A stretch of DNA of 64,000 nucleotides. Origin: Escherichia coli (GTDB lineage: Bacteria > Pseudomonadota > Gammaproteobacteria > Enterobacterales > Enterobacteriaceae). This document shows, piece by piece, positions 1 through 41,045 of the stretch (its first letter is position 1; each line of letters opens with the position of its first letter). The stretch is from assembly GCF_003991155.1 (NCBI RefSeq), contig NZ_CP031294.1. One strand, given 5' to 3'. A program made the position numbers and the translations under genes. The notes under the pieces are model-generated. The model saw nothing but the letters and a program-made list of their open reading frames with translations. It was not told the origin of the DNA and searched no databases.

Positions 1-1198
1 AAAGATTGTCGTTAATTACACATTTTATCTTAGAAATAAACTCAGATTCATTGTCCTTGAATGAGTCACTAAAAATATCCCAAACATTGTTAACCTCACA
101 TAAAGCCTTGTGTTCTTTATATTGTTTATTTTTTTCTTCTATTATACCTCGAATATTGCTTTCAGTAGAAAGATAACCATTCTTGAGATAAAAATCTATG
201 TCATCATCGAAAGCAATTTCCGCTCGTTCATAAATAATATCAAGACTATTAATAAATGAATATACAGAATCATCCTTTTTATCATCTAACATGTAATCAA
301 ATACATGTATGTTTTTAATTGATTCTTTAAACAAGGCATAATCAACACCTGGAACACCAGAATAGTAAACCACTGAAAACAGAACCAATCTATTGATAAA
401 ACTTTCTCTAACCTTATCCTCTGCCAAGCTTAGCTCATTCCTAAGATTAACCAGAGATGTTTTTATTTTATTTAATATACGGATATTTTTAATGCCTAAG
501 TCATTTGCTAAGACTTTTAACAAAAGAAAATCAGAATCAGTTTCATAAAAAACTTTACGTAAGTTCTTCTCAGGCGTAGGATCGTATTTTATTTCGACAT
601 CAATTACTTTTTCTCTGTACTCTAAAAACTGTTTTTTTGCAGTTTCATCATGTAAATTATCTTCATTTAAAATTAGAACAACTTTGCAACCTTTTCTTCT
701 TGCTAATTCATCAATTACCCCCATAATTTCTTTAACTTCTAGCGAATTACCTTTTCTTTCAACATCATCAATACAAACCAAATAATTATTAACAAATTTA
801 TACTCAAGAGATGACAGCAGGTTATCTGTTTTGAACCCAAAAAAATCGTTCTTTCCGAAATGTATTAAAAATTTTGACAAGGAGTTGTATTTCAACCATC
901 CCCAAAACCCATTTCTATAACGAATCATAGTTCGATCCGTTTCAGATAAAATTAGTTCTTTATATTTCTTTTCATTAATTGGTGTGGCACAATGATAAAG
1001 AGTTTTTTTAATATCACCAATAGAGTTAACCCCAAACAAAGAAACATACGAATATGCATTAAAATCTAATCCTTCAGAATGCTTAGTATAAAAACTATTC
1101 CAATAATGAGTTTTACCAACGCCCCAATCTCCTTTTATGACGGCAACCCGATGATCTGAAACTAGAAAATTTTTTAGAAATGATTCTATCGATTCCAT
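1..1198 (-). CDS. KAP-family-like P-loop NTPase, partial (3' end runs off the window start)
   Basis: Manual minus-strand translation from ATG at 1198: MESIESFLKNFLVSDHRVAVIKGDWGVGKTHYWNSFYTKHSEG...; GxWGxGKT Walker A as in KAP NTPases; no complete ORF in the track for 1-1200, consistent with a frame open to the edge; very AT-rich. Confidence 0.55.
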   Translation of the reverse strand, partial: MESIESFLKNFLVSDHRVAVIKGDWGVGKTHYWNSFYTKHSEGLDFNAYSYVSLFGVNSIGDIKKTLYHCATPINEKKYKELILSETDRTMIRYRNGFWGWLKYNSLSKFLIHFGKNDFFGFKTDNLLSSLEYKFVNNYLVCIDDVERKGNSLEVKEIMGVIDELARRKGCKVVLILNEDNLHDETAKKQFLEYREKVIDVEIKYDPTPEKNLRKVFYETDSDFLLLKVLANDLGIKNIRILNKIKTSLVNLRNELSLAEDKVRESFINRLVLFSVVYYSGVPGVDYALFKESIKNIHVFDYMLDDKKDDSVYSFINSLDIIYERAEIAFDDDIDFYLKNGYLSTESNIRGIIEEKNKQYKEHKALCEVNNVWDIFSDSFKDNESEFISKIKCVINDNL

Positions 1199-1220
1199 TA
1201 GTATCAATCCTTTAATTCAT

Positions 1221-1247
1221 ATATTGGGCGTAACAAACGCCCAATAT
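1221..1247. promoter_or_regulatory. 10-bp-stem inverted repeat (atattgggcg-N7-cgcccaatat) between the KAP-like gene start and the downstream end of the partition operon
   Basis: Perfect inverted repeat read directly; no U-tract on the minus strand, so terminator versus operator is unresolved. Confidence 0.35.
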
Positions 1248-1249
1248 AA

Positions 1250-1609
1250 TCAACCTTTCTTCATCAACTCTCGTTTAATTTCATCGGTACGCATCGTAAC
1301 GTCGGCAGCTGTGATCGCCTCGTTAAGCTTCACGATGTCCTCGATTTCCTGCGGTGACTTCTCTGCCAGATGGAAAATGGCTGCTCGAATCACGTCAGAA
1401 CGAGTGAACTTCTCGAAGCGAGGGATGAACTTCATCATCTCCAGCAGTTCGAAGTATTCGTCTTCCAGTGACATTGTGCGGCTTTTAATTTTCTCTTTGC
1501 CACGAGTCGGGCGTCCCTGTGGTCTGACTGGTTGGCGCAAAGGAGTTGTGTTCTTAGCCGGTGCATCAGGCTCTTTGCGCTTTGCTAGGTCACCCATTTT
1601 CATGGACAT
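1250..1609 (-). CDS. small basic protein downstream of parA; candidate centromere-binding partner (ParG/ParB-like), function not verified
   Basis: 119 aa ORF immediately after and translationally coupled to the ParA-type ATPase; basic N-terminus; position typical of type Ib partition operons. Confidence 0.4.
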   Translation of the reverse strand: MSMKMGDLAKRKEPDAPAKNTTPLRQPVRPQGRPTRGKEKIKSRTMSLEDEYFELLEMMKFIPRFEKFTRSDVIRAAIFHLAEKSPQEIEDIVKLNEAITAADVTMRTDEIKRELMKKG

Positions 1610-2277
1610 TATTCTTCTTCCTCCAGACTCAACAGATAATCTACAAATTCTTCAAACTCGGCTTCCGCCTTTTTGTCGCGCTCGTTACCGGTCATTTCAA
1701 AGATAGAACGACCAGACTCTTCCGCATCATCATAGACGTTGCGGTTATATAGATTGACTGGCGCAGACTCGATGCCAAACGTCTCAACAATCTCTTTAGC
1801 CGCCAGAATGCGAGACACTTGTGATGGCAAAGCCGGGCACTGGTTCATGACCGCGCGGACCTTCACTTTATCGTTTACATTACGAACATTGTCGATAATA
1901 GGATCAATGTCACGTAAAGATTTCAAATCACGACGCTTAGGACGCAGCGGGATAATGATAACGTCAGCCATCAGCATCGCTTGTCGCTGAATTTCGGAGT
2001 CGAAGCCACCAGCATCTACCACTACAAACTCAGCTCTACCCTGAAGCGATTTTAGGTGCTTAATGATGTCATCCTGAACGTATGCAAAAGGAATCAGCTC
2101 AAGGTCTTCGTTCTGTCGACGGTCTTCACACCAGCTCGTTGTCGTGCGCTGAATATCTATATCGGTAATATAAACCTTCTTCTTCTTTTTGACTTTCAGG
2201 CAAACGGCAATTTGCTGGGCAACGGTGGATTTGCCAGGCCCGCCCTTTGTGCCGCCAACCACAAAGATCTTGGTCAT
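1609..2277 (-). CDS. parA: ParA/Soj-family partition ATPase
   Basis: Deviant Walker A GGTKGGPGKST near N-terminus, ~220 aa, typical small ParA architecture. Confidence 0.8.
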   Translation of the reverse strand: MTKIFVVGGTKGGPGKSTVAQQIAVCLKVKKKKKVYITDIDIQRTTTSWCEDRRQNEDLELIPFAYVQDDIIKHLKSLQGRAEFVVVDAGGFDSEIQRQAMLMADVIIIPLRPKRRDLKSLRDIDPIIDNVRNVNDKVKVRAVMNQCPALPSQVSRILAAKEIVETFGIESAPVNLYNRNVYDDAEESGRSIFEMTGNERDKKAEAEFEEFVDYLLSLEEEE

Positions 2278-2453
2278 TGGAGAGTTCCCTTTGCGTATAT
2301 AATTATCGTCTGAAACAACTTGTTTTCTTATATGTGATATAGCCTAAATGCCTACGGCTGTGGTGTAAAGGTTAAATGGTAGGTGCTGCCTTAGAATTTT
2401 TAGGCGAGAATTAATGGCTGTTAACAAAAAAGGCGACCAAAGTCGCCTGATTT

Positions 2454-3206
2454 TTAATCTTTTAGGTATAAACCTACTGGAGTTCTTGTTTTGCGGGAGA
2501 TGATAAGTACGATAAATTTCTGAACGTTAACTTGCACTTTGTTTGGGAGCCAAGAGCTTAACTCTGCATCAAGCAACAATCCTCTGTTCCACGGCAAAAA
2601 TCCGGTTTCTTTCCCCATCCCGTACTCACCTAACACATCTTCGAACGTTTCTGTTTTGGCATTGTATATACGCACATCGCCGGTTCGCATGAGAGGCCCT
2701 GCCCAGATCTTAGCACCAGGAATGGTTTGTGTATCGTCGCAGACTAAATGCTCATACCAATGAAGAAGAAAGAGATAGGTACGGTGACACAATCCTCGCT
2801 GACGACGCTCTCTGACAGTTTCGACACCAGCTACCTGGTAACATTCGATCTCATTACCGTCTTCAACAAAACTATATTCACGCAGAGCTATCCTACCAGC
2901 GATCGTATTTTTGTTTTCGTCCAGAAGCCCGGACTGGAGCACCTCTTTGATAATCTCTTCTTCAGGGGCATCTTCATCCGCTCGATCTAAGATGAATTCG
3001 CTCAGGTCGCCTTGGTCGCGCGCACCTACACGTTCCATAGAGACATACAGGCAAATGTCATCTTCTGGTTCAATGATTTCAATTTCTGAGATTTTATAGA
3101 GGTAGGCTTCATTGATAAGAAAGCCAAAACGAACAACACGAGTCTCCCCTTTATGAGGAAACTCGCTTAGATCTTTTGAATATGCGCTATCTAGTGTAGG
3201 AGCCAT
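2454..3206 (-). CDS. hypothetical protein
   Basis: 250 aa ORF, no recognised motif. Confidence 0.45.
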   Translation of the reverse strand: MAPTLDSAYSKDLSEFPHKGETRVVRFGFLINEAYLYKISEIEIIEPEDDICLYVSMERVGARDQGDLSEFILDRADEDAPEEEIIKEVLQSGLLDENKNTIAGRIALREYSFVEDGNEIECYQVAGVETVRERRQRGLCHRTYLFLLHWYEHLVCDDTQTIPGAKIWAGPLMRTGDVRIYNAKTETFEDVLGEYGMGKETGFLPWNRGLLLDAELSSWLPNKVQVNVQKFIVLIISRKTRTPVGLYLKD

Positions 3207-3574
3207 TTTGTAGCAGAATCATCAGCCTTAACCGTGCTGACAATGCTACCATGATTGCGTAAGAAGCGGCGAATAGAATGTTCAATAACCTCCGAAAAAG
3301 CCTCGATAAAACGAGACAGCTCAGGGTACTGTTTAGCTGGCTTGACTACAAAACGAACACGACCATTCAGGTAAATTGCTTCAGCTAATGGCTTCACGCT
3401 TGCACCAGCGCGCTCAACATCGTCTTTGAAGGTAACGATGAAGCGTGAGTCTTCCGGTTCAATAGCGTCATTATTGAGCTTACGTACTTCAAGCTTGTGC
3501 TGATTCAGCACATGAGTCTCGATAATACTCGTGCAATCGCGAATAGTTTGTATAGAACGTTTCTCGTTCAGCAT
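3191..3574 (-). CDS. hypothetical protein
   Basis: 127 aa ORF overlapping the downstream gene by 16 nt. Confidence 0.45.
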   Translation of the reverse strand: MLNEKRSIQTIRDCTSIIETHVLNQHKLEVRKLNNDAIEPEDSRFIVTFKDDVERAGASVKPLAEAIYLNGRVRFVVKPAKQYPELSRFIEAFSEVIEHSIRRFLRNHGSIVSTVKADDSATKWLLH

Positions 3575-3798
3575 GTGTCCACCTTAGCCGTTAACACAAG
3601 TGTCATTGCGGCACCCCTCTCGGGGTTGAAGGCTACGAGGATGCGTAGCCTGTATGTGCCCACTTACGTGGATGCCTAATAAATCTACATCAAATTACTA
3701 AATGATTCAACATGAGCTTGAGTGAACAGGCGTGTATATGAGTGAAGATGCCATCTTTAGGATAAAAGGTAAACTGAGACCACTCATCAATCATCGCC

Positions 3799-5431: not shown

Positions 5432-8400
5432 TCAGTTACTTGTTGCCCCAACAGTACCTGCAAATTTCAGCCATTGACCTGACGGACTTCTATTACTACG
5501 GTAATGATAAACGAGGATTGCGTTTGTAACTCCACCGTAGTCAGCTTTATGTGACGTTGTTAAACGAATTGTATAATCACCGTTAGGTAGATTAAAAACT
5601 TCGATTATAGATTCTGCTAATTCTACAGCACCAAATCCCGTTATATTGTTGATACTGCCAGCATTGAATCCCATAGCATCGCCAAAGCCAATCCAATAAC
5701 TTTTGCTAAACGCCCCATTTGATTTTAGGTGGCTAATGAATGTGGACAAACTCATGCCCATATCCCCACCTGAAACAGAGGAAGTTCGCACAGTCATACT
5801 TGGAAGAGCACTGCTCTTCACATAGGAACTTAGAAGGTTTGTTACCTCTGTTTTCGTATAGGCATTAAGGTTAGCCGCAGTCAAAGTAATATCGGCAGAG
5901 CCATCAAACGCCACACCAGCAATTTTCCTTGCTGTCTGCAATTTTGTGGCAGTGGCAGCATTACCAGTAGTGTTCTGATTACCGGTTGTATTCACACCAG
6001 GTATTGAATCCTTAGCGGTATATACCTGCGCCCACGCAGACCATGCCGCATCAGTGGTATCTCTTCGGGAGCGAATGAAAACCGGCGCATGTGCACCGCT
6101 CGTACCACTCCAGCCAATAAGCAACTCGCCCTCACCAGCAGCACTCGCACCTTTCATGTGCAATACGTTGCCATACGTGGTCGGGTAGCTATTGCTGTAC
6201 GCCTCGTACATTTGAATGCCAGCAGTACCTTGAGCAGAACCGCTTAACGCCGTAACTCGGCCACGAGATACCAATGTATTAATGTTGATATCGCCTGAGC
6301 CATCAAACTTAACACCATTGATGTTTCTCGCTGTTTGCAACTTCGTAGCTGTTGAAGCATTACCGTTCAAACTACCATTTACGCCACCAGTCACATTTAG
6401 TCCATTACCAATTGATACAGCACCGCTGGTATTATTAATTGTAATAGGTCGCAAACCGTTCCATGAACCTAATGTGTCTCCTGATGCTGTTAGCATGAAA
6501 TATGTGTTCGATCCATCATTACGGATAAAGAACCCAAAGCTACCGTAAGCAATGCGGAAACCATTTGCATATTTTGAAATGATCTCGCCAGAAGATGTCA
6601 AACCTCCAGATAATGTACCACCGGTAAGAGGTAATGCACCGACATCAGAGGCTGTTGGTTTGTTTTTCGTGTTATATACTCTTCGCCATCCTGGAGAATA
6701 ATCTGTGCCATTAAATACATAGATAAACTCCGCATTAGTGAGAGCACCAGAGACACTCGTCGTTGTGGCCGTTGTTATACGGATCGTATAATTGTTTGAG
6801 CTACTACCGTTATTAAATACCTCTATAACAGCTCCTGCCAATGGAATAACGCCACAACCAGTTTCACTATTTGGTATGGTTGCACTATTGGCATAGGCCC
6901 ACGCACATCGAGCAATCCATGACTTTGTGTTAAATGCTCCATTATTTTGCAATAACGTCACTAACTGTGCTGTTGTTATTGCTCCGCCATTACTTCCTGT
7001 AGTTAACCAACCAGTAGGAGATGCCGGGCAACCTATATTTGCTGGCGACAAGGAAATATTTGCCGAGCCGTCAAACGACACCCCATTAATAGTACGCGCA
7101 GTCTGCAACTTCGTAGCAGTAGCCGCGTTGCCCGTTGTATTCTGATTACCAGTCGTATTAACACCTGGCAAATTAATATTCGCAGTACCATCAAAGCTCA
7201 CGCCGCCGATAGTTCTTGCCGTCTGAAGTTTTGTAGCAGTTGCAGCATTACCAGTGGTGTTCTGATTACCCGTAGTATTTACACCTGGAAGGTTGATATT
7301 TGCAGAACCGTCGAAACCAACTCCACCGATAGATCTTGCCGTCTGCAATTTCGTGGCTGTACTTGCATTACCATTCAATGAACCAGTTAATCCACCTGTA
7401 ACAGACAACGGACCTGAAACTGTTCCTCCGGTTGTTGGCAGTGCTCCAATATCTGATGGTGTAGGTTTCTGATGTGAGCTATACATCGTATAAACAACAC
7501 CATCGGTAACGCTGGAAGGCTTACTCGCTGAATATGTTGGCGAGGTATAAATAGAAACTGTCGCATTTGCAGTACAATCCCAATGGATATTTACACGAGT
7601 CGCATAATTGCCAATCTCAACGTAAATATCATATGTATCGCCGGATGTGTTGATCCAGGCGAAATTCGTTAATCCGACAGCTGTACGCTTCCACAAAGCA
7701 CCTGTAATCCCTTTGGGGTTTCCATTGCCTGCTCGTAGAACCAGTTCTGAAATGCCTGCCTGATGTGGGGAGCCGACGTTGTAACCAGCGCCACCAATCA
7801 ATGCGATGTAAACGATGGAACTCGCTTGTGGCATGGTAACCGTAGCCAGTTTGAACCACCCTGCCCCGCCAGAGAAAGACATCGTTACTGAATTTAAAGT
7901 ACCAATATCTTTCGGCGTTAATGTGATATCCGCAGTCAGTGCTTTACCGTTAACTTTTCGGTTAGATGGCACCCTGCTATTCGCATTGTCATTGGCTGCT
8001 TTAACTGCTTTTGGCGTTGCGGCCAGCGATTCACTGGTGCTGTCGACAGCACTGCTAAGTTTCACAACACCTTTAGTTGTAAGGCTTGCGTCTTCCATCG
8101 CAACTGCACCGGCAATCTCTTCAGCACGATCAGCAGCAGCTTCCGCACGGGTCGCAGCGGATTCAGCAGCAGTTTTGCTCTGAGATGCTGCCGTCGCACT
8201 GCCTGCCGCCTCTGTTGCTTTCGTGGATGCCGTCGTGGCACTGCCCTTCGCTGCTGACGCCTGTCTGGTCGCCTCATCTTTTGAAGCAGACGCAGATGAT
8301 GCCGATGACGCCGCCGAACTGGCGGACGATGCGGCAGCCGTTTTTGAGGATTCTGCGCTGGTTTCCGACGCTTTCGCGTTCGTTTCGGATGTCTTCGCTG

Positions 8401-9460
8401 CGGAAGCAGACCTCGCTGCTGCGCTGGCCTGTTCAGTGGCTTCGCCAGCCTTCGTTGTGGCTGTTGAAGCAGACGATGCGGCACTTTCTGCCGATTTTCC
8501 GGCGGCGGTGGCACTGGCTGAGGCCTGCCCGGCACTTGTTGACGCGGCACTGGCAGACGACGCAGCCGCTGTTTTTGAGCCTGCCGCAGCTGAGGCACTC
8601 TGTGCTGCTGCCGTCTCAGAAGACTTAGCGTTCGTCTCGGACGTTTTTGCCGCCTTCGCGGAATTGCCTGCCGCTGTTGCCGAGGAGGCTGCACTACTGG
8701 CGCTCAAGGATGCGTTCGTTTCTGATGATTTCGCTGCCTCTTTTGAGGCCGCCGCATCCCGGACTGAGGTGGCAGCTTCTGACGCTTTCGTGGTCGCGGT
8801 GGATGCAGAAGTGGCTGCTGATTGTTGTGACGCTGCGGCATTCGTTTCAGATTTTTTCGCAGCAGTTGCACTCGCACTTGCGGCACTTTGTGAGGATGCC
8901 GCAGCGGATGCACTTTGAGACGCTTGAGAGGCTTTTTCTCCAGCGGTATTGGCGCTTTCTGCTGCTGCGGCAGCACTGGCCGCCGCCTCACGAGCTTTGT
9001 CGCCAGCAGCATCAATCGCGTCAGTGTTATTTTTATACCACTCAACGTTTTCGTTGTGCTCGTTGACGATCTGCATTAGCGGCTTAACGGTTACTTCTGT
9101 ACCGTCTTCACGCTCGATTGTCACCTCATCCAGAGCAGTCAACCAACTGCGCATAGACTTGGAATCAGCCGACATACGCGACATTAGTGCTGTAAAGCGC
9201 GCGCTAAACTGTGTTAAGTCGCCTTCATAGGTCGTAATGATTCGGCACGGAACCTCAGACTGAGTTTCGCCGGTATAAGGTTCTGAGAGAACAATATTCG
9301 TATCGCTTATTACGCGCTTGATCTCATACAGCTTATTGTCGGGGCCAATGACGATCATCCCCGGCAACACACCATTAGCTGTTACGTTCCAGGCTGTCCC
9401 TGCCCCAACCAGAGTATTGCTACCCTGTGTAAATGTGATAGTACCTTCCCTGTACCACAT
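5432..9460 (-). CDS. phage tail fibre protein (long, Ser/Ala-rich linker, repeated GNAATATKLQTAR fibre repeats)
   Basis: 1342 aa; low-complexity A/S/T region; three or more tandem ~50-aa repeats containing GNAATATKLQTAR typical of phage fibre proteins; located downstream of J-like gene. Confidence 0.85.
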   Translation of the reverse strand: MWYREGTITFTQGSNTLVGAGTAWNVTANGVLPGMIVIGPDNKLYEIKRVISDTNIVLSEPYTGETQSEVPCRIITTYEGDLTQFSARFTALMSRMSADSKSMRSWLTALDEVTIEREDGTEVTVKPLMQIVNEHNENVEWYKNNTDAIDAAGDKAREAAASAAAAAESANTAGEKASQASQSASAAASSQSAASASATAAKKSETNAAASQQSAATSASTATTKASEAATSVRDAAASKEAAKSSETNASLSASSAASSATAAGNSAKAAKTSETNAKSSETAAAQSASAAAGSKTAAASSASAASTSAGQASASATAAGKSAESAASSASTATTKAGEATEQASAAARSASAAKTSETNAKASETSAESSKTAAASSASSAASSASSASASKDEATRQASAAKGSATTASTKATEAAGSATAASQSKTAAESAATRAEAAADRAEEIAGAVAMEDASLTTKGVVKLSSAVDSTSESLAATPKAVKAANDNANSRVPSNRKVNGKALTADITLTPKDIGTLNSVTMSFSGGAGWFKLATVTMPQASSIVYIALIGGAGYNVGSPHQAGISELVLRAGNGNPKGITGALWKRTAVGLTNFAWINTSGDTYDIYVEIGNYATRVNIHWDCTANATVSIYTSPTYSASKPSSVTDGVVYTMYSSHQKPTPSDIGALPTTGGTVSGPLSVTGGLTGSLNGNASTATKLQTARSIGGVGFDGSANINLPGVNTTGNQNTTGNAATATKLQTARTIGGVSFDGTANINLPGVNTTGNQNTTGNAATATKLQTARTINGVSFDGSANISLSPANIGCPASPTGWLTTGSNGGAITTAQLVTLLQNNGAFNTKSWIARCAWAYANSATIPNSETGCGVIPLAGAVIEVFNNGSSSNNYTIRITTATTTSVSGALTNAEFIYVFNGTDYSPGWRRVYNTKNKPTASDVGALPLTGGTLSGGLTSSGEIISKYANGFRIAYGSFGFFIRNDGSNTYFMLTASGDTLGSWNGLRPITINNTSGAVSIGNGLNVTGGVNGSLNGNASTATKLQTARNINGVKFDGSGDININTLVSRGRVTALSGSAQGTAGIQMYEAYSNSYPTTYGNVLHMKGASAAGEGELLIGWSGTSGAHAPVFIRSRRDTTDAAWSAWAQVYTAKDSIPGVNTTGNQNTTGNAATATKLQTARKIAGVAFDGSADITLTAANLNAYTKTEVTNLLSSYVKSSALPSMTVRTSSVSGGDMGMSLSTFISHLKSNGAFSKSYWIGFGDAMGFNAGSINNITGFGAVELAESIIEVFNLPNGDYTIRLTTSHKADYGGVTNAILVYHYRSNRSPSGQWLKFAGTVGATSN

Positions 9461-37148: not shown

Positions 37149-37613
37149 ATGAAGTCTCCCATACTGTTCACTTTCTGTTCTAAAACTATCATGAAATACT
37201 CGCTTCTCCCTCTACTAACGTTACCAGTGTTGATGCTTGCCGCGTGCCAATCACACCCAATATCAATCCATGACGCCAAACCAGCACCGCAGGCCAAAGT
37301 GTTCAAGTATCAAAGCGCAGCGCCAGCTACGTTGGTGGTAATGAGAGACACAGGTTTTGTAGGAGCTGGATGTGATGCTTCCATTTTCATCAACGGCGAA
37401 ACTGTCGCAAAACTGGCTACAGGCGAAAAAGCGACTTTCCATTTAAATGCCGGAGAATTAATTGTGGGTGCATCTCTTGAAGGTGCAGGTTTATGTGCTC
37501 TAAACCCCGCTCGTCAAGAGCGAGAAACGACTCTGAAGAATGGAGACACAAAAGCGTTCAGGGTGTTTACCAGCAATTCTGGTGACATCGACATTCTGCC
37601 AACAACTCTGTGA
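37149..37613 (+). CDS. putative lipoprotein
   Basis: Signal peptide with lipobox-like LAAC (MKYSLLPLLTLPVLMLAAC). Confidence 0.55.
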   Translation: MKSPILFTFCSKTIMKYSLLPLLTLPVLMLAACQSHPISIHDAKPAPQAKVFKYQSAAPATLVVMRDTGFVGAGCDASIFINGETVAKLATGEKATFHLNAGELIVGASLEGAGLCALNPARQERETTLKNGDTKAFRVFTSNSGDIDILPTTL

Positions 37614-37617
37614 TGAC

Positions 37618-38142
37618 ATGACAACCAAAGATATTACCTACGGTATCCAAGCTGAACTCTGGCCGCGAGATTACACTAACGTTGAAAAACTACTGATGTT
37701 CTGGCGCAGAGAACAAATTCCTGTAAGGGTCACTCTCGAAGATGGCCAGGCGTTTTGCATGTACGTTTATGGCCTCATGCCATCTCGTAACAAAGTTGAC
37801 CTTTGCCCAGCCCCTTTTGACAAAGAAAATCGTATAAGGCTCCCACTTGAACGCATTAGTACAATTGAATCAGGTGTGGTTGACAGTATCGCTCACGATT
37901 TCAAAGGTCGACTAACAGTTCACCCTGATTATGTCGATAATCGGCCATCACGCCGCGATTTTTTTGCAATTTGCAACCAAGCCTACAAAGCAAACAAATC
38001 TATAAGGGTGTACATGGCGGATGGCCGTGAAATTGAGGGGGTGTCAGCAGGCGCAGATGCTTGTCAGGTTACACTACGTGTCGAGAACGGTAGAAAAATA
38101 GTTGTTTTGTTCGATTGGGTTGAACGAATTTTGCCTTTTTGA
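37618..38142 (+). CDS. hypothetical protein
   Basis: Start set at in-frame ATG just after upstream stop; ORF track 37540..38142. Confidence 0.4.
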   Translation: MTTKDITYGIQAELWPRDYTNVEKLLMFWRREQIPVRVTLEDGQAFCMYVYGLMPSRNKVDLCPAPFDKENRIRLPLERISTIESGVVDSIAHDFKGRLTVHPDYVDNRPSRRDFFAICNQAYKANKSIRVYMADGREIEGVSAGADACQVTLRVENGRKIVVLFDWVERILPF

Positions 38143-38145
38143 GTT

Positions 38146-38454
38146 ATGAAATCGATATTGTTACCACCATTATTTTTACTTTGCTCAGTTGCGGCAAATG
38201 CAATGGACTATAAGCCTGTCATTCAGTCGCTGATGAATGACGTGTGCTCAACGTCTCAGAATGTATCAGTTTGCATGTATCAATTTTCGGCAGCCGTAAA
38301 AGCAGGAAAAGCGATAGGCGAGAATGTGGAACTGTGTAAGAAAGTGGCAAATGAAGAACGGGCAATGTTGGATTGCGAATCTAGCGAGTCATCGGCACAG
38401 TTCGTTGATGCGCTATTTGACACCAATCGTAAGGCTGTAGAGTCTGTTCAATAA
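38146..38454 (+). CDS. small secreted protein (signal peptide)
   Basis: MKSILLPPLFLLCSVAANA signal-peptide-like N-terminus; 102 aa. Confidence 0.5.
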   Translation: MKSILLPPLFLLCSVAANAMDYKPVIQSLMNDVCSTSQNVSVCMYQFSAAVKAGKAIGENVELCKKVANEERAMLDCESSESSAQFVDALFDTNRKAVESVQ

Positions 38455-38645
38455 ATCTATAAGGTTAATAACCGGCTAAGTCCGGTTATTATTTTTCACA
38501 TCACTTCTTTATATCTACAAATCAAATAACCTAAATATATATAAGGTCTAAAGCCGCAATCAATTATTTATTTAGGGAACACCTTCGACGATCTCGCTTT
38601 TATTTCTAGGACTTTCATCCCTGCAAAAAATTTAAAAAAAAACAC

Positions 38646-38673
38646 TTGCAATCTTTTTTCGCATATCGATAAT
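38646..38673 (+). promoter_or_regulatory. sigma70-like promoter candidate (TTGCAA-N16-GATAAT) preceded by A-tracts
   Basis: Hexamers read directly upstream of the 38739 operon; not validated. Confidence 0.4.
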
Positions 38674-38738
38674 TGAACTCGTCGAAAGCGAAGACGCTAA
38701 CGACAATAAATTTTAAATTTACATAAGGAAAAATTATC

Positions 38739-39389
38739 ATGGCTAACATTATCATTTCTAAAAAATCCATCATTGAAGCTGCTTCCATTGTATCCGATGA
38801 ACTGCGCGAAAAAGCAGATCTGGCAACTCAAACATATAACGAACATTATAAAAATGGTACGCACACTAAAGCAGACAAAGCAAATATGCAAGCTGCGACC
38901 ACTAAACTTGCTTACTTCATCAACAACGTCGTAAACGCAGTAGAAGACGAAAAATTATGCTCTGTTTTCTACTATGCGATTAAAGCAAGCAAACAAGCGC
39001 CAGAAGTATTTTTCCGTGATGCAATGACTAATAGTTATTCTCTGGAAAAACTGGTTTATCTGGTTAAATCAATTAAATCTGGTAAATGCGTTTATTCCAT
39101 CGCTGATATGTCTGGATCTCGTGTATTCGCTTTAATCGATATGATTAACGACGAGATCGACACGTTCACTAATGGCGCTGTTTTCGATTTAATGAATGAA
39201 GCTAAAAAAGCGTGTGAAATTAAATTGGACGCTGGTTATACTCAAGCCAACCAGTTGATCAATCTTTGCGAACGTCTTGGACTTGTTGAAAAAGTCAAAG
39301 GAGCTGGGAGCGCGAAAGCTGGTACTCAGCAATATCGCTTCATTAAAAATGATTTCTACAATTATTTAGCTGATGCTTTCAAAGCGTAA
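38739..39389 (+). CDS. hypothetical protein (AT-rich)
   Basis: 216 aa ORF with upstream promoter candidate and downstream hairpin. Confidence 0.55.
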   Translation: MANIIISKKSIIEAASIVSDELREKADLATQTYNEHYKNGTHTKADKANMQAATTKLAYFINNVVNAVEDEKLCSVFYYAIKASKQAPEVFFRDAMTNSYSLEKLVYLVKSIKSGKCVYSIADMSGSRVFALIDMINDEIDTFTNGAVFDLMNEAKKACEIKLDAGYTQANQLINLCERLGLVEKVKGAGSAKAGTQQYRFIKNDFYNYLADAFKA

Positions 39390-39437
39390 TTAATGGAATC
39401 AAGCGCCCACTATGGGCGCTTTAAAGGAGCTTTGAAA

Positions 39438-39641
39438 ATGGTCAGCTATGACAAGATCCGCGCGGAATATCGCGCAAAGTATCGCGCTTATAAACTAGAA
39501 TTAATCGATGATTTAATCGCGCAACGCGACCAATTAAATTTTACGTTTTCTGATTTGCTTAACAGCAAGCGAGATTGCAAGCGCAAACGTGAATACTTAC
39601 GTTTAAGCGCATTAATCGGAAAACTTCAAAATTCTATTTAA
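39438..39641 (+). CDS. small hypothetical protein
   Basis: Start at ATG preceded by AAAGGAG; ORF track version starts inside the upstream hairpin. Confidence 0.35.
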   Translation: MVSYDKIRAEYRAKYRAYKLELIDDLIAQRDQLNFTFSDLLNSKRDCKRKREYLRLSALIGKLQNSI

Positions 39642-39661
39642 TTTTTTTAAGGAGCTTAATC

Positions 39662-39892
39662 ATGTTTGTTCTTATCGCTGGCGTTAACGTCCATAACGAA
39701 TATTATGTTAATCGCATCGCTGGGATCGCTGGTTACGCTGGGCGCGCAGTCGAGTTTATCGATGAAACAACGCGTAAAATTGATTTATTGAGCGACCAGG
39801 AGCGAAAAAAAGCAGACGTGAACGACGCTGATATATTTTTAATGTTAAAAGCGTTTGTAGAAATGGGATTTAAAATCAGTTTACACAAATAA
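39662..39892 (+). CDS. small hypothetical protein
   Basis: 76 aa, SD AAGGAG upstream; followed by two tandem terminators. Confidence 0.4.
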   Translation: MFVLIAGVNVHNEYYVNRIAGIAGYAGRAVEFIDETTRKIDLLSDQERKKADVNDADIFLMLKAFVEMGFKISLHK

Positions 39893-39897
39893 AATCG

Positions 39898-39925
39898 AGC
39901 GCCCACTATGGGCGCTTTTTTCGTT
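39898..39925 (+). terminator. intrinsic terminator (gagcgcccac-tat-gggcgct + T-run); same hairpin also at 39401-39422
   Basis: Stem-loop and T6 run read directly. Confidence 0.7.
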
Positions 39926-39942
39926 TCCAATACTTCCACAAT

Positions 39943-39970
39943 AACGCGCCATTGATGGCGCGTTTTTTAT
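39943..39970 (+). terminator. second tandem intrinsic terminator (aacgcgccat-tga-tggcgcgtt + T-run)
   Basis: Stem-loop and T6 run read directly. Confidence 0.65.
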
Positions 39971-40383
39971 TGTCTTTAACTCACTCCAACAACATAAAAA
40001 TAAGCGCCAAAATAACGCCATAAACGCGCTTTTATATCCTTACCAGTACATACCCATTACTTAACACATTAACGCGCTTAAAACGCGTTATATTGCGCTA
40101 TAGCGTATGGTTAATCATTGGCTTTTAGTCTTGCTATGTGATCCGCGTTTATTTGTCGGCGCGGATCGGCATTTTGTTTTGTTCCGTATCCGCTCGCGTA
40201 TTATGTGCGCGTGATTTTTCACATAATCACACCACTTAATCACGTATGTGATTATGCTACGAAAGAAATCTGGATGTCTCAGGCGACGAAAGTCATCATA
40301 ATTTTCCCCGCTCGCCTGTCCGACAACCGCTGGTTGGATTCCACCAGCTTCCCGATGTTTTTTTCTACATAAAGGCGAATGCA

Positions 40384-40460
40384 GCCGTTTCCCGAAAAAA
40401 TCCTGGCCGTTTCCCGTCGGCTCATGAATACGTTCCTCGCCGTTTCTGAAAATTTCCCTG
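40384..40460. repeat. three iteron-like repeats GCCGTTTC(C/T)(C/G)
   Basis: gccgtttcccgaaaaaa / gccgtttcccgtcgg / gccgtttctgaaaatttccctg read directly. Confidence 0.5.
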
Positions 40461-40509
40461 CGGCAGCTGGTGGCTATAGAGAAAGGGCCGTTTCTGGCCC
40501 TCTTCTCAG

Positions 40510-40992
40510 TTACACGCCATCAAGGATGTGGATGCGGTTGCTTGCGTATACATTCAGCATAAAGTTAGCGCAAAACAGTTTCCATGTATCAACGCCAGCG
40601 GTATACGTAATGTTTTTGCATTTAATCGCATTGTTGGCGATCCGCATCCCCTGCGATACTGCTTCATCGTCGGAAAATTTGAACGACGATTGAGTTTTAA
40701 TCCAGACAGAAATCTGCGTAGCGAACTCAATCAGCTTGGACTGGCAGAATCGCCCGGAGCGCACCGGAAAGACGAACGTTCCGAATCCAGAATTTACCAC
40801 ATATGCTTTCTCAAATACCCGCGAGTAACGACGATTGCCAATGATGTCGCGTGCAATAATGCATTTTTCTTGTGCTGACAGTTCTACCGTCTCATTGTCG
40901 CGCCATGCACCAAGTACTCGTTTTTCAATGTCAGAGAACGTTACAGCGATATTGCCATGTGCGGGTGCGTTTACAGTAGCGATAAAATTCAT
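40510..40992 (-). CDS. hypothetical protein
   Basis: 160 aa; conserved family-2 box immediately upstream of start. Confidence 0.55.
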   Translation of the reverse strand: MNFIATVNAPAHGNIAVTFSDIEKRVLGAWRDNETVELSAQEKCIIARDIIGNRRYSRVFEKAYVVNSGFGTFVFPVRSGRFCQSKLIEFATQISVWIKTQSSFKFSDDEAVSQGMRIANNAIKCKNITYTAGVDTWKLFCANFMLNVYASNRIHILDGV

Positions 40993-41009
40993 GATTAATT
41001 CCTTATCGT

Positions 41010-41045
41010 AAATAACAAATTGTTTTCTTGTTGGTGTTAATTATC
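41010..41045 (-). promoter_or_regulatory. family-2 promoter/operator-like box (AACA-N3-TGTT core + TCTTGTTGG extension)
   Basis: aaataacaaattgttttcttgttggtgttaattatc read directly; about 20 bp upstream of ATG 40992. Confidence 0.6.

What the first reader, a model, noticed from the sequence alone, without database searches (positions are those of the whole stretch)
1..1198. AT-rich KAP-type P-loop NTPase gene at the element edge next to parA
The partial gene has the GxWGxGKT Walker A characteristic of KAP NTPases, a poorly characterised family often found in defence islands and on mobile elements. Its strong AT bias suggests foreign origin, so it may be cargo of the phage-like element.
Basis: partly seen in the sequence, partly recalled or inferred. 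Interest (0 to 1): 0.45.

Follow-up and report, generated by a model that had tools for sequence, protein, structure and literature searches.

The report
KAP-type ATPase cargo gene, phage-plasmid hotspot
The AT-rich partial gene is a real, intact, membrane-free KAP-type ATPase that sits as swappable cargo in a variable slot of an SSU5-like E. coli phage-plasmid and is most likely a single-gene anti-phage defence protein, but no experiment has tested its function.

Summary
Window 1-1198 (minus strand) holds the first 399 codons of a 564-aa gene (WP_000443723.1) with no stop codon. It has the Walker A motif GDWGVGKT and the Walker B motif LVCIDDVER, and its GC is 0.31 against 0.47-0.49 in its neighbours. 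The window is a slice of a circular 110.7-kb SSU5-like phage-plasmid, so the "edge" is only the window edge.

Pfam KAP_NTPase is passed, marginally (25.6 bits, cut-off 20). The protein has no transmembrane helix. AlphaFold gives a P-loop domain followed by a 360-aa all-helical repeat-like domain with no enzyme fold.

The gene fills a slot between the partition genes and the replication genes. Relatives with 99-100% identical flanks carry instead a DUF2971 gene (PADLOC candidate PDC-S31) or a two-gene module. Alleles in the same slot are only 76%, 44% and 39% identical, against 82-100% for the flanking proteins, and the divergence is concentrated in the C-terminal domain.

The closest tested relative is Reve, a P4-satellite single-gene KAP defence. 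The homology covers the NTPase domain only (HHalign 98%).

Best reading: a stand-alone sensor-ATPase defence cassette. This is a new member of a known kind, and the function is inferred. In passing, five E. coli chromosomes carry a type I-E CRISPR spacer that matches the gene exactly.

The parts
1..1198 (-). First 399 of 564 codons of the KAP-type P-loop NTPase gene (WP_000443723.1). The last 165 codons lie upstream of the window.
   Evidence: Translation is open throughout. It is identical to L002:8504-10198, minus strand. Pfam KAP_NTPase scores 25.6 bits, above the cut-off of 20. phrog_4740 matches over the full length, E 2e-165.
1109..1132 (-). Walker A / P-loop, GDWGVGKT (residues 23-30).
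   Evidence: Motif search. G22, W24, G25, G27, K28 and T29 are invariant in 52 diverse homologues.
758..784 (-). Walker B, YLVCIDDVE(R) (residues 139-147), the KAP-style hhhhDD[LV][DE]R motif.
   Evidence: C141 and D143 are invariant, and D144, E146 and R147 are at least 90% conserved. The motif aligns with Reve's IIDDLER and PifA's MDDLDR.
482..490 (-). N-I-R motif (N237, R239), invariant, at the start of the helical region after the NTPase core.
   Evidence: N237 and R239 are invariant. The motif aligns with Reve's ETNIRIIN.
1..583 (-). Window-resident part (residues 206-399) of the all-helical C-terminal domain (206-564), the most variable part of the protein.
1199..1249 (-). Cassette-specific leader. 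It holds a 12-bp GC-rich hairpin (1222-1246) directly after the stop codon of the upstream partition gene, then an AAGGA Shine-Dalgarno sequence (1208-1212) 9 nt before the ATG. The right-hand cassette junction is at about 1249/1250.
   Evidence: Alignment of six phage-plasmids: identity begins exactly at the stop codon of the 119-aa gene, and each cassette type has its own hairpin. RNA fold -17.9 kcal/mol, z -4.3.
1250..1609 (-). 119-aa small partition-module protein (backbone, conserved flank of the slot). Function inferred from its position after ParA.
   Evidence: phrog_5111 matches over the full length. It is 91-99% identical across E. coli, Salmonella and Klebsiella phage-plasmids. It has no Pfam hit.
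1609..2277 (-). ParA-family partition ATPase (backbone).
   Evidence: NCBIfam ParA_partition E 1.8e-33, 115.8 bits, below that model's 180-bit cut-off. Annotated ParA in phages SSU5, Cyrano and PhiR41_1.
470..502 (-). Protospacer inside the gene (codons 233-243). It is matched 33/33 by a type I-E CRISPR spacer in five E. coli chromosomes and has an ATG (AWG-type) PAM at 503-505 on the minus strand.

Best explanation
The gene encodes a soluble, single-polypeptide KAP-type (STAND-like) P-loop NTPase. It has an N-terminal ATPase of about 205 aa and a C-terminal alpha-helical repeat-like domain of about 360 aa. It is an exchangeable accessory cassette of about 1.76 kb in a hotspot of SSU5-like phage-plasmids, between the parA/small-partner partition operon and the hyp246-DnaB-like helicase-primase replication operon.

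The most likely function is protection of the lysogen, and so of the phage-plasmid, from superinfecting phages or competing mobile elements.

Proposed mechanism (inferred): the fast-evolving helical C-terminal domain binds a phage-encoded protein. This triggers NTP-dependent oligomerisation or ATP turnover by the conserved NTPase, which blocks phage development. No nuclease, protease, TIR or pore domain is present, so the output is either the NTPase activity itself or sequestration/remodelling of the bound target.

Shown here: the gene is intact, the motifs are present, the protein has no TM helix, the two-domain fold, the cassette nature with precise junctions, allelic diversification concentrated in the C-terminal domain, presence on mobile elements, and NTPase-domain homology to the validated defence protein Reve.

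Inferred: the anti-phage phenotype, the trigger, the oligomerisation and the output.
For: - Family and fold:
  - Pfam KAP_NTPase is above its cut-off.
  - Walker A, Walker B and NIR motifs are invariant across 52 homologues.
  - AlphaFold2 pLDDT is 88.6, with a P-loop domain plus a helical domain.
  - The C-terminal domain matches only helical-repeat folds.
- Cargo status:
  - With flanks 99-100% identical, the slot holds KAP, or DUF2971 (PADLOC PDC-S31, E 1e-41), or a two-gene module. Phage SSU5 carries the last two together.
  - The junctions are sharp, at the partition-gene stop codon and about 12 nt past the cassette stop codon.
- Arms-race signature:
  - Same-slot alleles are 76%, 44% and 39% identical, against 82-100% for the flanking proteins.
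  - Divergence is concentrated in the C-terminal domain: 50-60% there against 80-100% in the N-terminal part.
- Mobility:
  - Homologues lie in an ICE conjugation module, next to IS66, inside a Mu-like prophage, or as solo low-GC insertions, with no conserved partner gene.
  - One homologue lies next to a DUF2971 gene.
- Link to known defence:
  - Every one of the 52 members hits the PADLOC candidate PDC-S49 through the NTPase domain.
  - HHalign against Reve gives 98.1% probability, E 8.7e-14. Reve is a 586-aa, GC 0.30, single-gene KAP system from P4 satellite hotspots. It lowers plaquing of the four Drexlerviridae phages read here by 1e-2 to 1e-6.
  - Other KAP-type proteins defend in a Walker-B-dependent way (EF_KAP, PMC12632615) or exclude T7 (PifA).
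Against: - No experiment exists on this family. PHROGs lists it as unknown function and NCBIfam has no model for it.
- The matches to PDC-S49 and Reve cover only the NTPase domain.
- No effector domain is recognisable.
- Most sampled chromosomal contexts are not classical defence islands: the neighbours are housekeeping genes or genes of unknown function.
- No promoter was identified. Promoter-like sites are not enriched over shuffled sequence.
- Some copies are frameshifted (H47 and H48).
Confidence: 0.55

Rival explanations
1. The protein is a replication or partition accessory factor of the phage-plasmid, for example a DnaC/DnaI-like loader or ORC/Cdc6-like initiator ATPase serving the adjacent DnaB-like helicase.
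For: The gene is co-oriented with, and sandwiched between, the parA operon and the hyp246-DnaB-like helicase-primase genes. The best Foldseek PDB hits are RFC, ORC and Cdc6 AAA+ proteins. The only PDB sequence hits are the DnaI helicase loaders, at E 0.06-0.6.
Against: The gene is absent from most SSU5-like relatives whose helicase, ParA and flanking genes are 99-100% identical, and is replaced there by unrelated genes. It is present in only about 136 PLSDB records, against 736 that match the 6-kb backbone query. Distant homologues are solo genes with no helicase next to them. The structural matches are generic (TM 0.2-0.27) and the sequence hits are not significant. At 39-76% identity between alleles, it diverges far more than the replication proteins do.
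Confidence: 0.07
2. The protein is a weapon for competition between mobile elements rather than against lytic phages. It would exclude related phage-plasmids, conjugative plasmids or satellites, or act as a counter-defence or addiction module that benefits the element itself.
For: The gene is carried almost only on mobile elements: phage-plasmids, an ICE transfer module and a Mu-like prophage. A Klebsiella SSU5-like plasmid lowers both phage plaquing and plasmid uptake (PMC8969562), although that plasmid's gene content was not checked here. PifA on the F plasmid is thought not to have phage exclusion as its primary role.
Against: The closest tested relative, Reve, and the other KAP proteins were scored as anti-phage. 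There is no antitoxin-like partner gene. No anti-defence family was matched.
Confidence: 0.2
3. The gene is silent or decaying AT-rich cargo with no current function in this host, for example because it is silenced as xenogeneic DNA.
For: GC is 0.31. No convincing promoter was found and a stable hairpin lies just upstream. Frameshifted copies exist.
Against: One exact protein sequence of this allele (cluster P0001, 100% identical to the CMS-2020a copy used as query) is found intact on more than 900 contigs. All catalytic motifs are kept across about 3,000 clusters at 50% identity. The full-length architecture is conserved, and the gene is retained in the same slot across three genera.
Confidence: 0.1

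Closest known systems
Reve (single-gene KAP P-loop defence from P4-satellite hotspots; bioRxiv 10.64898/2026.02.27.708500)
   Same: Both are single genes of similar size (586 aa for Reve, 564 aa here) and similar GC (about 0.30), carried in a mobile-element hotspot in E. coli. Both have an N-terminal NTPase with the same motif series: GxWGVGKT, Y-x-S-[LV]-x-G-x-N-S, IDD[LV]ER, EKV, and NIRI[IL]N. HHalign gives 98.1% probability, E 8.7e-14, over residues 6-268. Neither has a TM helix. Both hit PADLOC PDC-S49 through the N-terminal part only. Human ORC structures (for example 5uj7) appear among the Foldseek hits here and are reported as the top Foldseek hit for the KAP-domain entry of that paper's file S3, whose heading was lost; it is assigned to Reve by its position in the file and by the main text.
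   Different: The C-terminal halves do not align. BLASTP finds only the P-loop region, at E 1e-5. Reve has a measured phenotype against Drexlerviridae; this protein has none.
PADLOC candidate PDC-S49
   Same: The NTPase domains are homologous. All 52 family members hit it, with a best E-value of 4.9e-28.
   Different: Only profile positions 8-214 of 624 are matched. The rest of the protein is not covered, so this is a sister family and not a member. PDC-S49 is itself only a candidate, and no paper in the library mentions it.
PifA of the F plasmid (classical TM-less KAP NTPase; T7 exclusion)
   Same: Both are plasmid-borne, lack TM helices, contain a KAP_NTPase domain and have a large C-terminal extension.
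   Different: PifA is a core KAP (148 bits), 741 aa long, and is paired with the repressor gene pifC. HHalign against this family gives only 47% probability, around Walker B.
Tmn (YobI family) and EF_KAP
   Same: Both are P-loop NTPase single-gene defences. EF_KAP's defence depends on Walker B; Tmn's involves enhanced ATP turnover. In both the non-ATPase regions are proposed to be sensors or effectors.
   Different: Both are membrane proteins: Tmn has two TM helices inserted in the P-loop domain, and EF_KAP has N-terminal TM helices. This protein has no TM helix (maximum Kyte-Doolittle 19-residue average 1.35). No PADLOC family other than PDC-S49 and PDC-M01A matched at E <= 1.
Bacterial STAND/Avs-type NTPases
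   Same: The logic is the same: a P-loop NTPase followed by a helical-repeat domain that varies fastest. Avs4, Apaf-1 and a TPR-STAND protein appear among the weak Foldseek hits.
   Different: Pfam nSTAND3 and NACHT score below their thresholds. There is no N-terminal effector domain, and the protein is much smaller.

Membership tests
KAP family P-loop NTPase (Pfam PF07693) | Score above the curated Pfam gathering threshold over most of the domain | tested here: met
   25.6 bits against a cut-off of 20, residues 12-254 on profile positions 12-278 of 293. The full-length protein scores 24.7 bits and homologues score 27.5-38.1 bits. The match is marginal compared with PifA at 148.5 bits.
KAP family P-loop NTPase (Pfam PF07693) | Walker A of the form GxWGxGK[ST] and Walker B of the form hhhhDD[LV][DE]R | tested here: met
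   GDWGVGKT at residues 23-30 and LVCIDDVER at 140-148. Both are invariant or nearly invariant in the family. Both align to the same motifs in Reve, and Walker B aligns to that of PifA.
KAP family P-loop NTPase (Pfam PF07693) | Transmembrane helices associated with or inserted in the NTPase domain (typical of the family but not universal; PifA lacks them) | tested here: not met
   The maximum 19-residue Kyte-Doolittle average is 1.35. Three of 52 homologues reach 1.6 (maximum 1.67); these peaks were not examined further. The region between Walker A and Walker B (residues 75-132) is a soluble helical insert with low pLDDT. PifA also lacks TM helices.
KAP family P-loop NTPase (Pfam PF07693) | Alpha-helical (superhelical) extension after the NTPase domain | tested here: met
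PADLOC PDC-S49 (defence candidate) | Full-length match to the family profile | tested here: not met
   Only profile positions 8-214 of 624 are matched, E 2.4e-22. All 52 relatives behave the same way.
Reve (P4 hotspot KAP defence) | Homology over the whole protein | tested here: not met
   HHalign gives 98.1% probability, but only over the NTPase domain (6-268 against 4-237). The C-terminal halves are unaligned.
Reve (P4 hotspot KAP defence) | Anti-phage phenotype on expression | not testable with these tools
   This needs plaque assays. Reve itself reduces plaquing of the four Drexlerviridae phages read here by 1e-2 to 1e-6.
Tmn / YobI family | Two TM helices inserted within the P-loop domain; match to Tmn models | tested here: not met
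   No TM helix. No PADLOC family other than PDC-S49 and PDC-M01A matched at E <= 1.
STAND NTPases (NACHT / nSTAND3) | Pfam score above threshold | tested here: not met
   nSTAND3 scores 17.3 bits against 27.2, and NACHT scores 11.6 against 26.7.
DnaC/DnaI helicase loaders | Significant sequence or structural match | tested here: not met
   The PDB profile search gives DnaI at E 0.06 and 0.59, over the P-loop only. No helicase-loader chain is listed among the 50 Foldseek PDB matches shown.
PHROG phrog_4740 | Full-length profile match | tested here: met
   E 2e-165, residues 1-563 on profile positions 4-626 of 627. The category is 'unknown function'.

The most novel reading that the evidence does not exclude
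The protein is an effector-less KAP NTPase whose helical domain is both sensor and output. It would not kill the cell. It would use ATP to capture or remodel a replication or assembly protein of an incoming phage or rival phage-plasmid. The AAA+ initiator/clamp-loader-like ATPase, the position next to the replication module, and the swappable C-terminal specificity domain all fit this. It would be a non-abortive, replication-level exclusion system whose target range is reprogrammed by exchange of the C-terminal domain.
Probability: 0.12. Interest if true: 0.7.

Novelty: new member of a known kind. Interest (0 to 1): 0.4.

Why it matters
SSU5-like phage-plasmids are common in clinical E. coli, Shigella sonnei, Salmonella and Klebsiella. 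What their accessory slots encode affects how these strains respond to phages, including therapeutic ones. This locus offers a clean natural experiment. It has one precisely bounded slot with at least three interchangeable cassettes, two of which are PADLOC defence candidates. It also has a KAP-type family of about 3,000 clusters at 50% identity, with no tested member, whose C-terminal domain diversifies while the ATPase stays constant. Showing a phenotype would add a large family to the defence catalogue. It would also give a tractable system, through allele swaps between 76%-identical E. coli versions, for working out how effector-less KAP NTPases sense and stop phages.

Tried and rejected
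- Foldseek against afdb50 was unavailable.
- Foldseek against PDB gave only generic AAA+/STAND similarity (TM 0.2-0.27). The PDB sequence-profile search gave nothing significant.
- NCBIfam has no model for the protein.
- The promoter/terminator consensus scan was not enriched over shuffled sequence and gave no usable promoter for the gene.
- Rfam (gathering thresholds) and tRNA scans of the whole window found nothing.
- No paper in the library mentions PDC-S49.
- The Klebsiella plasmid with a measured anti-phage effect (Kp1604 p2, OK644452) is not in the searchable collections, so I could not check whether it carries the homologue.
- The F-plasmid record AP001918 was absent, so NC_002483 was used instead.
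- I looked for a conserved partner gene next to distant homologues and found none. The only recurrence was DUF2971.
- The helicase-loader idea was considered and rejected, because the gene is dispensable in near-identical relatives.
- The short plus-strand ORFs across 1-1198 (49-56 aa) were not examined further. They are presumed to be by-products of the AT-rich sequence.

Full report
**1. What is in the sequence**

The reverse strand of window 1-1198 is open for 399 codons, starting at the ATG at 1196-1198, and it runs off the start of the window. Megablast places the window at positions 32001-96000 of NZ_OW849379.1. That record is a circular 110,667-bp IncFIB plasmid from an E. coli clinical isolate, and it carries tail, lysis, ligase, primase and helicase genes like Salmonella phage SSU5. 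It is therefore an SSU5-like phage-plasmid.

The complete gene is L002:8504-10198 (minus strand). It encodes 564 aa and is annotated only as 'P-loop NTPase fold protein' (WP_000443723.1). Its first 399 residues are identical to the window translation.

The gene order is parA, a 119-aa partner gene, this gene, a 246-aa hypothetical gene, a DnaB-like helicase and a primase, all on the same strand.

- Walker A, GDWGVGKT, is at residues 23-30 (window 1109-1132).
- Walker B, LVCIDDVER, is at residues 140-148.

The AT bias is strong. GC is 0.306 and GC3 is 0.25, against 0.47-0.49 and 0.47-0.56 in the five neighbouring genes.

**2. Family assignment**

- Pfam: KAP_NTPase is the only family above its curated cut-off (25.6 bits against 20, covering 12-278 of 293 profile positions). 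nSTAND3 and NACHT fall below theirs. Homologues score 27-38 bits.
- PifA: the classical KAP protein PifA of the F plasmid scores 148 bits, so this family is a peripheral branch of KAP. HHalign of the family profile against PifA gives only 47% probability.
- Other libraries: PHROGs has the family as phrog_4740, a full-length match (E 2e-165) of unknown function. NCBIfam has no model.
- Family size: an exhaustive HMMER search finds 3,041 clusters at 50% identity with E <= 1e-3, and 556 with E <= 1e-30. Most of the 150 best listed are 530-610 aa and align end to end.
- Conservation: in 52 diverse members the invariant residues are the P-loop, a YxYxS motif after it, C141/D143 of Walker B, N177, K196, N237, R239 and R556.
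- Membrane association: there is no transmembrane helix. The maximum 19-residue hydropathy is 1.35, and PifA and Reve also lack one.

**3. Structure**

AlphaFold2 with the 52-sequence alignment gives pLDDT 88.6. The model has three parts:
- a P-loop alpha/beta domain (residues 1-205);
- a poorly ordered helical insert between Walker A and Walker B (residues 75-132);
- an all-helical domain (residues 208-563).

Foldseek against the PDB returns only generic AAA+/STAND ATPases (RFC, ORC, Cdc6, Avs4, Apaf-1) at TM 0.2-0.27.

**4. The gene is a cassette in a hotspot**

Relatives whose flanking genes are 98-100% identical carry different genes at exactly this position:

| Element | Slot content |
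|---|---|
| pDETEC87 and phage Cyrano | A 251-267-aa DUF2971 protein, a full-length match to PADLOC candidate PDC-S31 (E 1e-41) |
| pMTY18780-3 | A two-gene module (250 aa + 140 aa) |
| Phage SSU5 | Homologues of the two-gene module together with DUF2971 |

The junctions are sharp. On one side, identity starts at the stop codon of the 119-aa gene (window about 1249/1250). On the other side it starts about 12 nt beyond the cassette's stop codon.

Each cassette type brings its own stable 12-13-bp hairpin directly after the partition-gene stop codon. The free energies are -18 to -22 kcal/mol, with z-scores of -4.3 to -6.7.

The KAP-type cassette is found in:
- 136 PLSDB records (75 Klebsiella, 20 E. 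coli), against 736 records that match the 6-kb backbone query;
- 27 of 5,426 complete E. coli genomes at 80% or more of its length, with all the long matches on plasmids;
- one deposited phage genome, CMS-2020a.

**5. Diversification**

The same slot in another E. coli plasmid, a Salmonella plasmid and a Klebsiella plasmid holds alleles only 76%, 44% and 39% identical to this one. ParA, its partner, the 246-aa protein and the helicase are 82-100% identical across the same plasmids. All four alleles have GC 0.29-0.31.

Between the two E. coli alleles, the first 360 residues or so are 80-100% identical and the last 200 or so are 50-60% identical. This fits a conserved ATPase motor joined to a rapidly changing or recombining specificity domain. 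The association with this slot is old, so the gene is not a one-off foreign insertion.

**6. Contexts elsewhere**

More distant homologues (30-36% identical) were found in these settings:
- inside the conjugation module of an integrative element in Salmonella salamae;
- next to an IS66 element in Oleispira;
- inside a Mu-like prophage;
- as single low-GC insertions among housekeeping genes or genes of unknown function. GC was measured only for the loci, and it was below the flanks in all five.

There is no conserved neighbouring gene. The one recurrence is a DUF2971 gene adjacent to the homologue in a Pseudomonadales genome. The protein therefore works alone.

**7. Links to known defence proteins**

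Every family member hits the PADLOC candidate PDC-S49, but only through the NTPase domain (profile positions 8-214 of 624). This makes it a sister family and not a member.

[quoted passage not shown] It gives strong protection against Drexlerviridae, with efficiency of plaquing of 1e-2 to 1e-6 for the four phages read here.

I extracted the Reve sequence from the preprint's supplement. It is 586 aa, has GC 0.30 and has no TM helix. HHalign against my family profile gives 98.1% probability and E 8.7e-14 over the NTPase domain, matching motif for motif. The C-terminal halves do not align.

Other precedents from the literature:
- EF_KAP gives Walker-B-dependent defence that is not abortive infection, and KAP domains are found fused to diverse C-terminal regions (PMC12632615).
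- PifA excludes T7.
- Tmn, of the YobI family, senses the T2 RIIB protein and raises ATP turnover (PMC13001434).

**8. Interpretation**

The best-supported reading is a stand-alone sensor-ATPase defence cassette carried by the phage-plasmid.

I put 0.55 on the defence function. The structural and cargo statements are far more secure, at about 0.9.

The mechanism is inferred. The C-terminal helical domain would recognise a phage protein, and the NTPase would drive oligomerisation or ATP turnover. The output step is unknown because no effector domain is present.

The rivals are:
- a replication or partition accessory role (0.07), weakened by the gene's dispensability in near-identical relatives;
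- competition between mobile elements, or a benefit to the element itself (0.2);
- silent or decaying cargo (0.1), weakened by conservation of the motifs and by one intact protein sequence of this allele being found on more than 900 contigs.

**9. Novelty**

This is a new, untested member of a known kind: single-polypeptide KAP-type NTPase defence proteins with variable C-terminal regions. The most useful product of this analysis is the well-defined three-cassette hotspot and the pattern of C-terminal diversification. Both are directly testable.

**10. Side observation**

Five E. coli chromosomes carry a 32-nt type I-E CRISPR spacer, in the ygcE-queE array, that is identical to window 470-502. 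The match extends one extra base into the repeat. The protospacer has an ATG (AWG-type) PAM. In NZ_CP024269.1 the spacer is second from the AT-rich end of the array, which I take to be the leader end. E. coli CRISPR adaptation has therefore sampled this cassette.

Noticed in passing
window 470-502 (PAM at 503-505); L018:1501-1533: Five of 5,426 complete E. coli chromosomes carry a type I-E CRISPR spacer (array between ygcE and queE) identical over 33/33 nt to the KAP gene, covering codons 233-243. The protospacer has an ATG (AWG-type) PAM, and the PAM's G is included in the match. In NZ_CP024269.1 the spacer is second from the AT-rich end of the array, which I take to be the leader end.
   Followed up: partly
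window 1222-1246; L003:7017-7070; L004:6958-7004: Each of the three cassette types carries a different 12-13-bp GC-rich hairpin directly after the stop codon of the 119-aa partition gene (-18 to -22 kcal/mol, z -4.3 to -6.7). The structure and position are conserved but the sequence is not. It may be the parA-operon terminator or an insulator that travels with the cassette.
   Followed up: partly
window about 2385-3600 (ORFs 2454-3206 and 3191-3574, minus strand): There is a second variable slot on the other side of parA. This plasmid has a 250-aa + 127-aa pair (phrog_3307 and phrog_2594, unknown function, no PADLOC hit). CMS-2020a, Cyrano and NZ_CP020118.1 have instead a DUF1778 antitoxin / GNAT (KacT-type) toxin pair.
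   Followed up: partly
outside the window: L002:3801-4946 (+) = NZ_OW849379.1 26801-27946: A third variable spot lies next to the primase gene. In this plasmid, a 381-aa Sel1/TPR-repeat protein on the opposite strand lies there, with a weak PADLOC PtuA-like P-loop hit. It is absent from pMTY18780-3 and Cyrano, and pDETEC87 has a 350-aa hypothetical gene at the same position; whether that gene is unrelated was not tested.
   Followed up: no
L008:5001-6707 compared with window 1-1198 and L002:8504-10198: Two E. coli alleles of the gene are mosaic. Residues 1-360 are 80-100% identical and residues 361-564 are 50-60% identical. This suggests recombinational exchange of the C-terminal domain.
   Followed up: partly
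window 5432-9460 (minus strand), especially 8001-9000: A 1,342-aa tail-fibre ORF contains a long Ala/Ser/Thr-rich low-complexity stretch. Locally this raises GC to 0.59 and gives an AT skew of -0.33. RefSeq annotates a shorter CDS here (37432-41016 in the record).
   Followed up: no
PLSDB records NZ_CP053233.1 and CP022461.1 (hits H47 and H48): The KAP gene matches these records in 4 and 2 tblastn pieces respectively, so it is frameshifted or disrupted in some E. coli and Shigella sonnei phage-plasmids.
   Followed up: no
window 1250-1609 (minus strand): The 119-aa gene after parA is annotated 'RelE/ParE putative toxin' in phage Cyrano. It has no Pfam hit, is 91-99% conserved across genera, and sits where a small centromere-binding partition partner would be expected. 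The toxin label looks doubtful.
   Followed up: partly
L016:10001-12613: In a Pseudomonadales MAG, a KAP-family homologue lies directly upstream of a DUF2971 gene that is homologous to the alternative cassette of the phage-plasmid slot (30% identity over 117 aa). The two cassette types therefore also travel together outside phage-plasmids.
   Followed up: partly
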